13,382 nt of DNA from Promethearchaeia archaeon (GTDB lineage: Archaea > Asgardarchaeota > Lokiarchaeia > Sigyniarchaeales > SOKP01): NCBI GenBank assembly GCA_029856125.1, contig JAHQWJ010000149.1, positions 1 to 13,382 of the forward strand. The letters are read 5' to 3'. A model generated the notes under the pieces. It did no database searches. It saw only the letters and a list, made by a program, of their open reading frames with translations, and was not told the origin of the DNA. The translations under genes were made by a program, and so were the position numbers. Below, in pieces: positions 1,233 to 6,570 of this stretch (position 1 is its first letter; every line of letters starts with the position of its first letter).

Positions 1233-3762
1233 TTATTTTAGGTACTTACCTGTAACCGATTTTACATTCGCTACTATTTCTTGAGGAGTCCCCAAAGCTA
1301 TGATCTCTCCTCCATTTGGACCCCCTTCTGGACCTAATTCGATAATGTAATCCGTGTAAGATAAAATTTCTGGATCGTGTTCTATAATTAGAACACTATT
1401 TCCATCTTGTACTAAGTGTTCTAAAAGTTCCATTAGTTTCACTGCATCGTAAAAGGATAAACCAACGGTGGGTTCGTCTAAAATGTATAAAGATTTTGTT
1501 TTTCTAGCTCTTCCAAGTTCTTTAGCAAGTTTTACTCGTTGAGCCTCTCCACCACTCAATGTAGGAGCAGGTTGTCCTAATGTTATATATCCCATTCCAA
1601 TATCTTCAAGGATCTTTAAAACATTCGATATATTTGCATCGGATGCAAATAACTTCGCCGCTTCTGAAACAGTCAAATTTAATACATCTGAGATTGAACT
1701 ACTTTTATATTTTACTTCCAATATTTCTGGTCTATATCTAAGCCCATGGCATTCCTTACATATGATGTTAAAGCTACTTAAAAACGATATTTTTAGATCT
1801 TGTTCACCGGTACCTTTACATGAGGGACAGCGTCCCTTATCAGAATTATAAGAATAGTGACCTGCTGAATATTTGCGTTTTTTCGATTCAGCCAGTTTTG
1901 CAAATTTATTTCTTATTTTATCCCAAATTCCTATATATGACGCTGGAGTAGATGTTTTAACTCTTGAAATTGGTTTTTGACTGACAACTATAACTTCATC
2001 TAGAAATTCCCAACCACTAACCATTCCAGAATATTCTAGAAGCTCTTCACCATTCTCCTCTTCACCGTTATCATTATTTTTATTTTTGGCTTTATCTGCA
2101 CCTCGCTTGAAAAAAGGTTGCAATAAGGGGACTAATGTATCTAATATTAGAGAACTTTTTCCGGATCCAGATACACCCGCAACTCCTACCATCATCCCTA
2201 AAGGGATTTTGACTTCAATATTCTTTAAATTATTAGTCTTTGCATTCTTAATAGTTAGAAAATTAGTTGACTTGTCTATAAATTTCTTTAAATTCTCTGG
2301 TTTATCAGGTAATGATAATTTTCCACTAAGAAATTGCCCTGTATAGGAATTACTAACATTTTTTAGCTCTTCTATTGTTCCTTGGAAGACTAATTCTCCG
2401 CCATTTTTTCCTGCACCTGGACCAATGTCAATAATCTCATCAGCTATTTCAATAAAGCGTTTATCATGTTCTACAACTATAATCGTATTCCCTAAATCTT
2501 TCAACTTCTTCAACAATTCTATTAATGAGTCCTTTTCTCGTTCATGCAAACTCATACTTGGCTCGTCTAGGATATATATTAGAGAATCAATACCTGCATC
2601 TAAATGTGTCATTAACGACAATCTTTGGAGTTCGCCACCACTTAGTGTGGGTAATGGTCGATTTAAATTAATATACGATAAACCTACATCTCTCATACTT
2701 CTTAGTCCTTTGATTACAAGCTTGCTCATATTCTTTCCTTGAATAGTTTTTATATTATTTTTTTTCAATTCTTTTAGAAAAGAGATCAATTGGTCGATAG
2801 GCATCTTTGCTAACTCACCAATATGTTTATCTCCAATTTTTACACTTCTAGCTTGTTCGTTTATTCTATATCCCTCACATTCATCACATTTTTTTAAAGA
2901 CATGAAATTTTTATGAATCTTATCTCGTCGATATACACTCTTTGATTCTGTAAGAGCACGCTTTATATGAGGGATAATTCCTTCAAATACTCTTTCTAAA
3001 ATCCCCGTAAAGGTTTTCGAGTCCCAATCAAAAGGAAGTATTTTCCCACTCCCATACAAAAATATTTGTTTAACATCTTCAGGTAAATCTTTATATGGTG
3101 TATTTATGTCAAAATCATAAAACTTTGGTAGTTGCTCTACAAATCTGATTTGATCTGCAAATACTGCCGAACCGGCTTTTGTAATTTGAATAAGATTCCT
3201 ATTATAGTCTTGAACGATTAATTCTTCAGTTAGATGCATTTGATATCCTCGTCCTTTACAAGCCAAACACAATCTAGCCTCTGAGCTATTTTCTCAAGAG
3301 GTTTCCAGATGGCTCGTTAAAGGAAAAGTGCTTAATTTGCTTACGTTCTACAACCATACCACACAAATCGCACTCCAAGGATGACTGATTTACGGGTTCT
3401 TTGCAGATAGGACAAAGAAGTACACCTTCTGCTGCATATAACATCCTGAGTAGATTATATAACCTCGTTTTTGTACCTACTGTAGAGCGAGGATTGAACA
3501 CTCTCGTAGTTCTCTGCTCAACAGCAACTGTTGGACTTAAACCTTCAAGTAAATCAAACGGTTTTTCATCTTCGAATTTTGGAGGAAATCCAATAGATTG
3601 TAAATATCGATTCATTCCTTCGTCAAAAATGATATCAAAAGCTAAACTTGATTTGCCCGAACCTGATACGCCCGTAATTAGAACCATTTTCTTTTTAGGA
3701 ATTTCCACATTTAAATCCTTTAAATTATGAAGTCTCGCTCCCACTACTTTTATCTTATCCAT
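1233..3762 (-). CDS. uvrA: Class II UvrA-like (UvrA2/DrrC-type) ABC ATPase, interrupted by a 31-nt intron; exon 1 3762-3303, exon 2 3271-1233, 832 aa after splicing
   Basis: N-terminal GARLHNLK and Walker A GVSGSGKSS; first LSGGE/ILDEP; second Walker A GVSGSGKSS and LSGGEAQR/ILDEP; three CxxC..CxxC zinc modules. The short CPIC-CDLC spacing indicates no UvrB-binding domain. Start ATG 3762 (MDKIKVVG) follows gaaggt. The ORF track splits the gene into 3286-3828 and 1233-3272. Confidence 0.88.
3272..3302 (-). other. Putative bulge-helix-bulge (BHB) mRNA intron, 31 nt
   Basis: mRNA reads CAU-CUGG-AA|A-CCUC-U-UGAG-AAAAUAG-CUCA-GAGG-CUAG-AU|U-GUG. It has a 4-bp central helix CUGG/CUAG, two 3-nt bulges, an 8-bp intron stem and an exon-exon stem CAU/GUG. 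Removal gives UCU GGA AUG UGU UUG GCU UGU (SGMCLAC). Confidence 0.85.
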
Positions 3763-3787: not shown

Positions 3788-4447
3788 TCATTTCTTTTGT
3801 AATATATAGTATGCACAATCAATTTCATTTGGATTGGCTTTTATCCAGCTAATTTCAGCTTCAATAGCCTTGATATTTTCCAATAGATTGGGATCTTCTT
3901 TTCCTTCACGGATATCCTTGATTTTTCTTTCTAAGGGTTCATAATAATCTGTCCACCAGCAACCCTCAGGCCAGTTAAATTGCTTTATCAAATCAAAACC
4001 ACATTTGGCTAATAATTTATGATTCTTTTCCATCGCTTTGATAGCTTGACCAAGCACGAAATACCCTCTAGCCTTGAGAATACGACGGCATGCATTAAAA
4101 CTCTCCTTAAAACCAATAATCTGCACCACACCCGCCTCCCAAACTAGATCAAAATAGTTATCTGGAAAATCATTTTTTAAAAAATCCATTCTTTTAGTCT
4201 TGATTCTATTTGAAAGATTCCTTATCTTAATTTTTTCATTTAATTTATCTAAGAGTACTTGGTCAATGTCTATCGCAATGATATCACCATTGGTCAAATT
4301 AGCAAGCTCGATCGTAGGAAGACCAGATCCACAGCCTAAATCAAATATTCTCGGTTTTTCCATTTTCGGAAGCAATTGAAAAGCCTTACTCATATATTTA
4401 AGAAAATTAACCCTTAATTCTTCCGTGTATGGTTCTTTATATGACAT
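3788..4447 (-). CDS. Class I SAM-dependent methyltransferase
   Basis: Motif I IFDLGCGSG, acidic AIDID, post-II FDLVW, and a WWTDYYEPL C-terminal segment. Confidence 0.9.
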   Translation of the reverse strand: MSYKEPYTEELRVNFLKYMSKAFQLLPKMEKPRIFDLGCGSGLPTIELANLTNGDIIAIDIDQVLLDKLNEKIKIRNLSNRIKTKRMDFLKNDFPDNYFDLVWEAGVVQIIGFKESFNACRRILKARGYFVLGQAIKAMEKNHKLLAKCGFDLIKQFNWPEGCWWTDYYEPLERKIKDIREGKEDPNLLENIKAIEAEISWIKANPNEIDCAYYILQKK

Positions 4448-4456
4448 TTTACCACT

Positions 4457-4885
4457 TCATTTTTTATTTGGATTTATTTTTTTTCCACAATCATAACATT
4501 CGGCATCGTGGACGCAAATTTCTCCACCACAGTCCGGACATCGATATAACATTTCTTTTTCTTGTATCCATTGCTCAAATCCTACCTCTTGAAGTCTCTT
4601 TAGATTCTTAATCTGACTTACACCATATCTTTTAGAATACATCTCATCAAGCCTTTTCAAGTTTGAGCACGGAAAAGTGTTGCATTCGTAACAGAACTCA
4701 ATTTCGTTTTTTCTTATTAACGCACAATCTCTTTTTATATACGAACATTTTTTATTTCGAATCCGACACCCATTGCAACCACTTTTATATCCTTTTTCTT
4801 CAAAAAGATTTTTTTTAAATAACAAATATGATCTACAAGCACCACAATATACTCCGCATGGAGCTGCTAAATTTTTTTCACTCAT
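4457..4885 (-). CDS. DUF3795-like Cys-rich protein with a C-terminal zinc ribbon
   Basis: APCGVYCGAC...CNGCR...C...C...FCYECNTFPC pattern, plus CPDCGGEICVHDAECYDC. ggag lies upstream of the ATG. Confidence 0.8.
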   Translation of the reverse strand: MSEKNLAAPCGVYCGACRSYLLFKKNLFEEKGYKSGCNGCRIRNKKCSYIKRDCALIRKNEIEFCYECNTFPCSNLKRLDEMYSKRYGVSQIKNLKRLQEVGFEQWIQEKEMLYRCPDCGGEICVHDAECYDCGKKINPNKK

Positions 4886-4898
4886 CTTTTATTTCTCC

Positions 4899-6032
4899 TC
4901 AAATTTTTAGTTTATTTAATTTAGTAAACAAAATTTCTTCTTGGTTATGGATATCGTAAGCAATATTCTGTAGTTCTTTTAAATTAATATAACTTAAGCA
5001 CTCATCTTTGTGTTCTTCTGCAGATTCTTTTAAAGTGTCCGCGATCGTAGTCCAATTACTTGCAGACTTACTAATAATAGGAATACATTCTTCTATAATT
5101 TTGAAATCTTCGTTATTCCATGCTTTAGGGCCTTGTTTAATCTCTGGATGCTCTAGTAATTCCTCTAGGAAATCTCTATAAATATTACGAAAGCTTGCCC
5201 CTCCAGTACCCCAAGTTTCAATATATCCATGTAATAGTTCAAACATTAATCTTGCACGGGAAATTGATTTACCAACAGGATCCTTTGCTATCCCCTGCAA
5301 TTTTTTATTCCACTGAGGAATAGAAGCCGCAAATTGTTTTAATCCCTGAATACCGTTATTATTTACTGATGGTCGCAACATATTATCTACCACTTTTTTA
5401 ACAGCAATTTTTACTCCCGCTGCTAAAGGTGGATGTTTTCCGTCAAGTCTTCTTACCATGGAAAATTGGGCATTGCTCGGGTGCATAAATTTCGGACCGT
5501 GCTTAGAACTTCTTGCTTGTTTTAATATTTCTATCGGGACTTCTTGGAAGCCTTCAAATTCTGAATCACCTACAAATGCCATACCATTATCATCATTATA
5601 ACCTGCTAAAGTAATTGCATGCCCGCCGAAGTGGATTTCTCCCTCCTTTTCAAAATAAGGTAAATATCCCAAATCCACTTTAAGGATTAAAGGGATATTC
5701 TGGTTTAACATTTTTTTTGCCTCTTCCCACGCTTTGCTTGCACTGGTAAAAGATTGCTTCCTTAATGTAATTCCTAATAATCGGCAAGCTAACGAATTTG
5801 GCTCAATTGTACCCTGCTTACCTCCAAGGAAAAAGGGGATATCCGATTCCGGTATAAATGATATGCTATTAGTGGTATCGAAAAACCCAAAACCCATCGT
5901 AGCATCTAAACCAAATGCCATAGGCTCCGAAATTGGAAAACCATGAAATTCAAACATATCTCTCATTGAGGATGATTCACAATGATAACCAACTCTGTGA
6001 ACAAACTCATTTATTAGGTGTTTTTGAGCCAA
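4899..6032 (-). CDS. BtrH N-terminal / DUF4872-like protein (papain/NlpC-like fold, putative peptidase)
   Basis: GYHCESSS (candidate catalytic Cys), DLGYLPY, HFGGHAITLAGY (candidate catalytic His), and GTGGASFRNIYRDFL. TTG start after ggggag, overlapping the padR 3' end. Confidence 0.75.
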   Translation of the reverse strand: MAQKHLINEFVHRVGYHCESSSMRDMFEFHGFPISEPMAFGLDATMGFGFFDTTNSISFIPESDIPFFLGGKQGTIEPNSLACRLLGITLRKQSFTSASKAWEEAKKMLNQNIPLILKVDLGYLPYFEKEGEIHFGGHAITLAGYNDDNGMAFVGDSEFEGFQEVPIEILKQARSSKHGPKFMHPSNAQFSMVRRLDGKHPPLAAGVKIAVKKVVDNMLRPSVNNNGIQGLKQFAASIPQWNKKLQGIAKDPVGKSISRARLMFELLHGYIETWGTGGASFRNIYRDFLEELLEHPEIKQGPKAWNNEDFKIIEECIPIISKSASNWTTIADTLKESAEEHKDECLSYINLKELQNIAYDIHNQEEILFTKLNKLKI

Positions 6033-6570
6033 TTTCGTCTCCCCCGTTGATTTTTTCTATAACCCATTCCATAAATAAAATATCTGTTTCAAGGATTTTT
6101 ATAGGATGAATAAATAACCCTGAAACATTTATCGGATAGTTAGAATTAACCTTGAGCATACTTTCCAGTTCAATTTTATGATTTTTCATTGTCTCTATTG
6201 AATAAGAAAACGCTTCAATCATTTGCTCCGTGCTCAAGAGTGGAAGCATAGAAAAGGCAACGTAAAAATCCTCATCGTTTTTTCCAAGAAATCCCTTAAT
6301 TACGTTATAAACCTTCTCCTTTAGTATTTTTGAGCCATAATCTGTAATTGTATATACTTTTCGCTTCCGACGATCTACTTCTTCTTCATAATGTTCTACT
6401 AATTTTGTATCCTCAAGTTCTAAAATTACTCTATATATTGAAGATTTACCTATTGCTGTCCAATCTCTCATTCCCCTTTCATCTATCCGCCGATTGATAC
6501 TATATGCGTGGCTAGGCTCTTCTGCTACCAGTCCTAGAATAACAAATTGTTTATGACTTAAGTTTTCCAT
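6007..6570 (-). CDS. PadR-family transcriptional regulator
   Basis: ILGLVAEEPSHAYSI...SSIYRVILELE...RKVYTITDYG winged-HTH pattern with a helical C-terminal domain. gagg RBS upstream. Confidence 0.9.
   Translation of the reverse strand: MENLSHKQFVILGLVAEEPSHAYSINRRIDERGMRDWTAIGKSSIYRVILELEDTKLVEHYEEEVDRRKRKVYTITDYGSKILKEKVYNVIKGFLGKNDEDFYVAFSMLPLLSTEQMIEAFSYSIETMKNHKIELESMLKVNSNYPINVSGLFIHPIKILETDILFMEWVIEKINGGDEIGSKTPNK

What the first reader, a model, noticed from the sequence alone, without database searches (positions are those of the whole stretch)
3259..3315. Canonical bulge-helix-bulge intron inside a protein-coding (uvrA-like) gene: candidate tRNA-type mRNA splicing
Seen in sequence: the gene breaks exactly inside the conserved FSFNxPxGxCxxCxGxG zinc motif because of 31 extra nt, not a 1-2 nt indel. 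The mRNA (minus strand) folds as exon stem CAU/GUG; central 4-bp helix CUGG(3308-3305)/CUAG(3277-3274); 3-nt bulges AAA(3304-3302) and AUU(3273-3271); and intron stem CCUC-U-UGAG/CUCA-GAGG, with the in-frame UAG in its loop. GAGCCA/UGGCUU offers further exon-exon pairing. Established knowledge: archaeal splicing endonuclease EndA cuts after the second nucleotide of each bulge and RtcB ligates; the classic mRNA example is crenarchaeal cbf5. Applying that rule with no adjustment removes 3302-3272 and builds an AUG codon across the junction, giving FSFNEPSG-M-CLACKGRG and an 832-aa ORF. Inference: this is a spliced pre-mRNA that pipelines would call a pseudogene or two genes. I know of no described BHB intron in a uvrA-family gene. 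If the host is Asgard-like, it bears on the origin of non-spliceosomal mRNA splicing.
Basis: partly seen in the sequence, partly recalled or inferred. Interest (0 to 1): 0.95.

Follow-up and report, generated by a model that had tools for sequence, protein, structure and literature searches.

The report
Mobile tRNA-type intron in Asgard uvrA
A UvrA-like gene of an Asgard (Lokiarchaeia-type) archaeon is broken by a 31-base hairpin shaped like a tRNA intron, so its mRNA is very probably cut and re-joined by the tRNA-splicing enzymes; the intron appears to have arrived on a short stretch of DNA swapped in from another lineage.

Summary
Observation confirmed. The 31-nt insert (3302-3272, minus strand) has bulge-helix-bulge (BHB) geometry. 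Cutting after the second base of each bulge restores an 832-aa class II-type UvrA with the junction PSG-M-C, as in 59 of 60 intron-less orthologues. The host is a Promethearchaeota (Lokiarchaeia-type) archaeon with two EndA subunits and RtcB.

Eight other alleles carry diverged 30-31-nt inserts at the same site. Their intron stems covary, and synonymous exon bases form a long exon-exon stem. Both exons show dN/dS of 0.04-0.17. DNA contigs from two independent studies contain the insert.

Intron-bearing alleles are not a clade (AU p=1e-76). This allele is a mosaic: a tract of about 270 nt that includes the intron matches an intron-bearing donor, on an intron-less backbone. The only detected aIF2-gamma gene of this genome also carries a BHB intron.

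No spliced RNA was seen; no RNA holder was listed. The scan noted BHB mRNA introns before, in this genome and at least 33 others. The papers I could search report only cbf5 (coding) and one Haloferax 5' UTR. Splicing is about 88% likely.

The parts
3303..3762 (-). Exon 1 of the short (class II-type) UvrA: 460 nt, 153 codons plus 1 base; Walker A of the first ATPase domain, two CxxC pairs, ends FSFNEPSG
3272..3302 (-). 31-nt BHB intron, phase 1, with in-frame UAG (3288-3286) in the hairpin loop
1233..3271 (-). Exon 2: starts inside the Met codon just before a CxxC zinc-ligand pair; UvrA DNA-binding domain and the rest of both ATPase domains
3305..3308 (-). Central helix, 5' strand CUGG (exon)
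   Evidence: 94% of cells paired in 9 alleles
3302..3304 (-). 5' bulge AA|A; predicted cut between 3303 and 3302
   Evidence: AA in all nine alleles
3278..3301 (-). Intron hairpin; three of its five outer pairs change on both sides across alleles
3274..3277 (-). Central helix, 3' strand CUAG (intron)
3271..3273 (-). 3' bulge AU|U; predicted cut between 3272 and 3271. Base 3272 plus TG also reads as an in-frame TTG
3309..3324 (-). 5' arm of the exon-exon stem, built partly from synonymous codon choices
3252..3270 (-). 3' arm of the exon-exon stem
3261..3532 (-). Recombination tract carrying the intron: 53 of 55 informative sites follow intron-bearing L108, against 9 of 55 outside. Left edge 3547-3532, right edge 3261-3252
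3788..6570 (-). Upstream co-oriented genes, probably one transcript with the uvrA-like gene: PadR regulator, BtrH-like protein, DUF3795 protein, methyltransferase
   Evidence: similar upstream DNA in L114, L111, L112; co-transcription is inferred

Best explanation
This is a real tRNA-type intron in an mRNA. The transcript folds into a hairpin held by a long exon-exon stem, which presents a 4-bp helix between two 3-nt bulges. The host's two-subunit splicing endonuclease EndA cuts after the second base of each bulge and RtcB joins the exons. That builds an AUG codon, removes the stop and frameshift, and gives an 832-aa class II-type UvrA. The intron is not fixed in the family: it moves between alleles by homologous recombination together with the exon bases it pairs with, and it entered this lineage on a tract of about 270 nt. 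SHOWN: geometry, junction, covariation, selection on both exons, presence of the enzymes, mosaic ancestry. INFERRED: transcription, cleavage, ligation, protein product, and the direction and mechanism of transfer.
For: (1) The junction is fixed by homology: 59 of 60 intron-less orthologue rows have ATG there, and the BHB-rule cut is the only one giving PSGMC in all nine intron alleles. (2) Nine distinct inserts of 30-31 nt sit at one site, only 14-28 bases alike pairwise; one is 30 nt with an in-frame stop and eight are frameshifting. (3) 90% of cells pair against 36-50% for slid controls; three intron-stem pairs change on both sides; 0 of 500 shuffles reach the covariation score. (4) The exon-exon duplex is -9.7 to -21.1 kcal/mol against a mean of -6.1 in 62 intron-less alleles, and beats synonymous randomisation at p<0.05 in 8 of 9. 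(5) dN/dS is 0.04-0.17 in both exons, and tblastn shows no second break in the full-length intron alleles. (6) EndA has two subunits, one keeping the Tyr, His and Lys of Aeropyrum EndA; RtcB is present. (7) The only detected aIF2-gamma gene is split inside GHVDHGKTT by a 29-nt BHB intron; 12 of 39 genus copies have it and 27 do not. (8) Mosaic: 97% identity to intron-less L111 downstream but 77% in the tract, and 95-98% to L108 in the tract (0 of 300 permutations). One clade of intron alleles is rejected, p-AU 1e-76.
Against: No spliced molecule was observed. The strict BHB conformer is about 5 kcal/mol above the computed minimum fold. Two alleles have a mismatch in the central helix. In all nine alleles the last intron base plus TG is an in-frame TTG or ATG behind a purine-rich stretch, which allows a two-protein reading. 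The nine alleles are related, so their counts are not independent. BHB-like folds are too common in this genome to be evidence alone: loose scans showed no excess over frame-shifted controls. The left tract edge falls at a branch point of the public contigs, so an assembly chimera there is not fully excluded.
Confidence: 0.88

Rival explanations
1. Split gene with re-initiation: the insert supplies a stop for an N-terminal chain of about 158 aa and a ribosome-binding site plus start codon for a 679-aa C-terminal chain, and the two chains reassemble. No splicing is needed.
For: All nine alleles have TTG or ATG in the exon-2 frame at the 3' end of the insert, most with GAGG, GAGA or AGGA about 5 nt upstream. 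The 16S 3' end has the complementary tail. Selection on both halves fits this too.
Against: The purine stretch is buried in a covarying stem. This reading does not explain the fixed 30-31-nt length, the bulge geometry or the exon-exon stem. TG is dictated by the Met codon, so only one base (A or T) is free. GAGG and AGGA each precede only about 9% of long ORFs here (rough count). The aIF2-gamma intron splits a P-loop, and the codon at its 3' end is not a start.
Confidence: 0.06
2. Pseudogene: a hairpin inserted and killed an accessory gene.
For: The gene is a second UvrA; a canonical copy with the UvrB-binding domain is elsewhere in the genome. Most orthologues have no insert.
Against: The same site is used in nine divergent alleles, with compensatory changes, purifying selection and no second lesion. 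The allele recurs in several sediment studies.
Confidence: 0.03
3. Programmed frameshift or ribosomal bypass of the hairpin yields a near full-length protein.
For: In this allele the two frames overlap by 5 nt at an A-run before UAG, and in five other alleles they overlap more.
Against: In L004, L017 and L119 the first frame stops before the second opens, so no single shift works. A shift would put about 10 extra residues next to a zinc ligand, which no orthologue shows.
Confidence: 0.02
4. Assembly artefact.
For: The genome is assembled from a metagenome, with 6% contamination, and intron-less relatives occur in the same sediments.
Against: Contigs of two studies not flagged as the source span the insert with no difference (X7 2929-3562, X10 3216-3562). 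Related inserts occur in eight other alleles.
Confidence: 0.01

Closest known systems
BHB intron in the cbf5 (pseudouridine synthase) pre-mRNA of Crenarchaeota (Watanabe 2002; Yokobori 2009, PMC2738675)
   Same: Short BHB intron inside a coding sequence, between the first and second base of a codon in a conserved motif; cut between the second and third bulge residues; host with a two-subunit EndA; patchy presence.
   Different: Different lineage (Asgard) and gene (accessory UvrA-like ATPase). Here the alleles are scattered over the gene tree with a visible recombination tract, and the same genome has other BHB mRNA introns. cbf5 splicing is shown by cDNA; this one is not.
BHB intron in the 5' UTR of Haloferax volcanii HVO_1309 (PMC7714728)
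   Same: An mRNA substrate of the tRNA splicing endonuclease.
   Different: It lies outside the reading frame, so the protein sequence does not depend on splicing; here it does.
Asgard tRNA introns (bioRxiv 10.64898/2026.10.13.758758; PMC11291895)
   Same: Same broad host group, BHB boundaries, repeated gains, two EndA paralogues; route of arrival reported as open.
   Different: Those are in tRNA genes; the preprint has no occurrence of 'mRNA' or 'cbf5'. This case shows one route of spread, allele-to-allele recombination, for an mRNA intron.
Class II UvrA proteins (Deinococcus UvrA2, PDB 2vf7; Ecm16, PMC9328131)
   Same: Host protein: about 830 aa, two ATPase domains, DNA-binding domain, no UvrB-binding domain; aligns end to end with 2vf7.
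   Different: It scores higher against class I UvrA sequences than against 2vf7, so shared descent with known class II proteins is not shown. Function is untested. I found no report of an intron in this family.
Homing group I and homing-endonuclease-bearing rRNA introns (from my own knowledge)
   Same: One insertion site, scattered distribution, transfer of flanking exon sequence.
   Different: 31 nt, with no ribozyme core and no encoded nuclease; no active homing is shown.

Membership tests
Archaeal BHB (EndA/RtcB) intron | 4-bp central helix between two 3-nt bulges on opposite strands, with flanking helices | tested here: met
   the strict conformer is about 5 kcal/mol above the computed minimum
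Archaeal BHB (EndA/RtcB) intron | Cuts after the second base of each bulge restore the uninterrupted gene | tested here: met
   PSGMC in all nine alleles
Archaeal BHB (EndA/RtcB) intron | Structure conserved while intron sequence varies | tested here: met
   three pairs with two-sided change; alleles are related, so support is not fully independent
Archaeal BHB (EndA/RtcB) intron | Host encodes EndA with catalytic residues, and RtcB | tested here: met
Archaeal BHB (EndA/RtcB) intron | Spliced RNA or excised intron seen in vivo | tested here: inconclusive
   no RNA holder listed; the two runs labelled RNA are probably DNA, and their contigs at this junction are a different allele
Archaeal BHB (EndA/RtcB) intron | Cleavage by EndA in vitro | not testable with these tools
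   needs a bench assay
Self-splicing group I/II or homing intron | Ribozyme core or encoded endonuclease/maturase | tested here: not met
   31 nt; no Rfam match at E<=1
Class II UvrA (host protein) | UvrA fold lacking the UvrB-binding domain | tested here: met
   PF17760 absent in the intron-less orthologue, present in the canonical copy on C125
Class II UvrA (host protein) | UvrBC-independent protection against DNA-binding compounds | not testable with these tools
   known for Ecm16 (PMC9328131, title and abstract start only); here only the PadR-cassette context

The most novel reading that the evidence does not exclude
These ~30-nt BHB introns are actively spreading elements of Asgard mRNAs. 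With no enzyme of their own, they are copied into intron-less alleles of other species with a bias, leaving conversion tracts that end 10-20 nt past the intron. Splicing by the tRNA endonuclease could then gate expression of a stress-protection gene.
Probability: 0.2. Interest if true: 0.92.

Novelty: new variant of a known kind. Interest (0 to 1): 0.74.

Why it matters
The papers I could search document endonuclease splicing of an archaeal coding sequence for one gene only, cbf5. This case, with the aIF2-gamma intron in the same genome, points to routine protein-catalysed mRNA splicing in the closest prokaryotic relatives of eukaryotes, which use the same kind of chemistry for tRNA introns and, by my own knowledge, RtcB ligation for XBP1. 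It also bears on a question the Asgard tRNA-intron preprint leaves open, how BHB introns arrive: here an intron has moved between lineages on a recombination tract with the exon bases it needs. In practice, annotation pipelines call such genes split or dead, which distorts Asgard gene inventories. The 85-nt substrate and a cloned EndA make the claim directly testable.

Tried and rejected
Homology-free genome scans. The first script timed out. Loose BHB plus ORF-rescue scans gave no excess over frame-shifted controls (118 vs 123-140; 25 vs 26-34), so motif alone has no power here. With bulge priors from the uvrA alleles the strictest cut gave 15 vs 3-8; it recovered aIF2-gamma, a histone and uppS but did not list this intron, so I did not use it for a count.

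RNA. No RNA holder was listed. X19 and X20 are probably DNA. Their contigs that join across this junction are the intron-less L111-type allele (119 other letters between, also in DNA run X10), not a spliced transcript. This is not evidence either way.

Intron origin. No copy of any of the nine introns elsewhere in the genome beyond chance 12-16-mers. No Rfam family.

Trees. The AU test on all 63 rows did not finish. It was run on 21 rows, exon 2 only, LG+G4, leaving out partial alleles L108 and L113 and most intron-less rows. Exon-1 trees also do not unite the intron alleles.

Other. One query had a frame slip. Tocchini-Valentini 2011 was not held. Seven paper searches found no report of Asgard mRNA BHB introns, but most subscription papers are not searched. 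No structure or complex prediction was run; it would not separate the rivals.

Full report
OBSERVATION. The minus strand carries a UvrA-family gene in two ORFs, 3828/3762-3286 and 3272-1233. Removing 3302-3272 gives one frame of 832 aa from ATG 3762, with the junction HFSFNEPSG-M-CLACKGRG. Many other deletions reopen the frame, so reopening alone proves little. What matters is that orthologues fix the junction. Shuffling the 31 nt gives equal geometry at this register with p=3e-4, and the region folds at z=-4.6.

HOST. Relatives of this gene at 67-100% identity are almost all titled Promethearchaeota or other Asgard names. The genome is 3.69 Mb, 33% G+C, 99% complete and 6% contaminated. It encodes two EndA-family proteins. 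L031 aligns with Aeropyrum EndA (E=2e-33) and keeps the Tyr, His and Lys positions; the His is the one replaced in entry 3ajv. It also keeps the segment that I recall as the crenarchaeal substrate-broadening loop; that identification is from memory. RtcB is present. The gene is the second UvrA: it lacks the UvrB-binding domain, which the canonical copy on C125 has. It lies at the end of a PadR, BtrH-like, DUF3795, methyltransferase cluster.

ORTHOLOGUES. Of about 60 intron-less rows, 59 have ATG at the junction. Five genomes and four further metagenome alleles carry an insert at exactly this site: eight of 31 nt and one of 30 nt with an in-frame stop. In the 42 genomes of the genus, four match the interrupted pattern. 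The inserts share only 14-28 bases pairwise, yet all nine parse as helix, AA|N bulge, hairpin, helix, A(A/U)|U bulge; two have one central mismatch. The BHB-rule cut is the only one giving PSGMC in all nine, and the only possible one in four. On the alignment 90% of cells pair, against 36-50% for slid controls, and three intron-stem pairs change on both sides. The alleles are related, so this overstates independence.

EXON ADAPTATION AND SELECTION. Intron-bearing alleles have a strong exon-exon duplex, -9.7 to -21.1 kcal/mol against -6.1 +/- 2.2 in 62 intron-less alleles. It beats synonymous randomisation in 8 of 9. dN/dS is 0.04-0.17 in both exons, like intron-less pairs, and tblastn shows no second break in the full-length intron alleles. 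This is not a decaying pseudogene.

REAL DNA. Contigs from two studies not flagged as the source span the insert with no difference. No RNA holder was listed, and the two runs labelled RNA are probably DNA whose contigs at this junction are a different allele. Splicing is therefore unobserved.

MOBILITY. Intron-bearing alleles are scattered: eight changes are forced for nine alleles, and one clade is rejected on exon 2 (p-AU 1e-76). The window's allele is 97% identical to intron-less L111 downstream, 77% across coding bases 200-460, and 95-98% identical there to intron-bearing L108. Of the informative sites, 53 of 55 inside bases 231-471 follow L108, against 9 of 55 outside; no permutation of 300 reached this, and the statistic stays high without the stem region. 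The intron-less relatives agree with each other across the tract, so this allele is the recombinant and the intron was probably gained. L004 has a similar step at base 470 against its sister, and L117 a step at about 430. Intron-less pairs also show steps elsewhere, so recombination is common in this gene and passive transfer is sufficient. Short shared flanks in L016, L113 and L117 could be co-transfer or convergent selection for the stem. The right edge is spanned by one unbranched contig; the left edge falls at a branch point and needs read-level proof.

SYSTEM. Homology-free scans have little power. I checked one lead from the scan's notes myself. The only detected aIF2-gamma gene is split in GHVDHGKTT by a 29-nt BHB intron; 12 of 39 genus copies carry a 29-30-nt insert there and 27 lack it. 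As this factor is essential (established knowledge), the host must remove such inserts, and that raises the odds for the uvrA intron.

RIVALS. The strongest is a split gene. In all nine alleles the last intron base plus TG is TTG or ATG in the exon-2 frame, most with a purine-rich stretch just upstream. That stretch is buried in the covarying stem, only one base is free, and the reading explains neither the fixed length nor aIF2-gamma. Frameshifting is impossible in three alleles. Pseudogene and artefact are contradicted above.

COMPARISON. It works like the cbf5 pre-mRNA intron (PMC2738675). A 2020 paper names cbf5 as the only earlier mRNA case and adds a Haloferax 5' UTR (PMC7714728); the 2009 paper mentions predicted introns in other genes. 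The 2026 Asgard tRNA-intron preprint does not treat mRNA and leaves the route of arrival open. All testable BHB features are met; splicing in vivo and cleavage in vitro are not tested. This scan has noted the same kind of intron in this genome and at least 33 others; none of its notes matched uvrA with recombination. Those notes are leads, not support.

VERDICT. A real BHB intron in an mRNA, spliced with about 88% probability. It is a new variant of a known kind: new lineage, accessory gene, and visible transfer between alleles. Interest 0.74.

Noticed in passing
G000:C136:18999-19027 (+), locus L125: 29-nt BHB intron in the P-loop of the only detected aIF2-gamma gene; present in 12 of 39 genus copies, 30 nt in G014. 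G004 (8% contaminated) holds both forms.
   Followed up: yes
G000:C82:17995 (-); C32:16934 (-); C63:73144 (+); C18:10728 (-): Further candidates from my scan: a histone (30 nt, strict BHB), uppS (30 nt, HVGLILDGNRRWA), an HPHP-motif gene, and an unverified 29-nt candidate with a strong fold.
   Followed up: partly
window:3272-3281 (-): The 3' splice site doubles as an in-frame TTG (ATG in three alleles) about 5 nt after GAGG, so unspliced mRNA might make a C-terminal fragment.
   Followed up: partly
window:7547-8980 (+): Fusion of a branched-chain polyamine synthase domain (BpsA_C) with S-adenosylmethionine decarboxylase.
   Followed up: no
window:52-1155 (+): ORF with internal repeats, conserved downstream of this gene in G010 and L116.
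   Followed up: no
L064:1501-4170; L075: In-frame extra sequence in otherwise orthologous short UvrA genes (61 and 18 gap positions); nature unknown.
   Followed up: no
G011:C83:8304-12197: A 1625-aa open frame with several UvrA matches next to the short UvrA gene.
   Followed up: no
L096, L040, L048, L062, L081: Record titles conflict with kinship: L096 is titled a Nanopelagicaceae bacterium, others Odin-, Hod- or Hermodarchaeota, yet they are the same loci as same-genus genomes G010, G021, G012, G019 and G024.
   Followed up: no
G000 whole genome: ARAGORN finds only 29 tRNA genes, about 12 with intron calls, several at odd positions, in a 99% complete genome; many tRNAs may be hidden by introns.
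   Followed up: no
L049/L060, L068/L061, L045/L057: Intron-less alleles also show identity steps (near bases 545 and 1350-1360), so this gene recombines often.
   Followed up: partly
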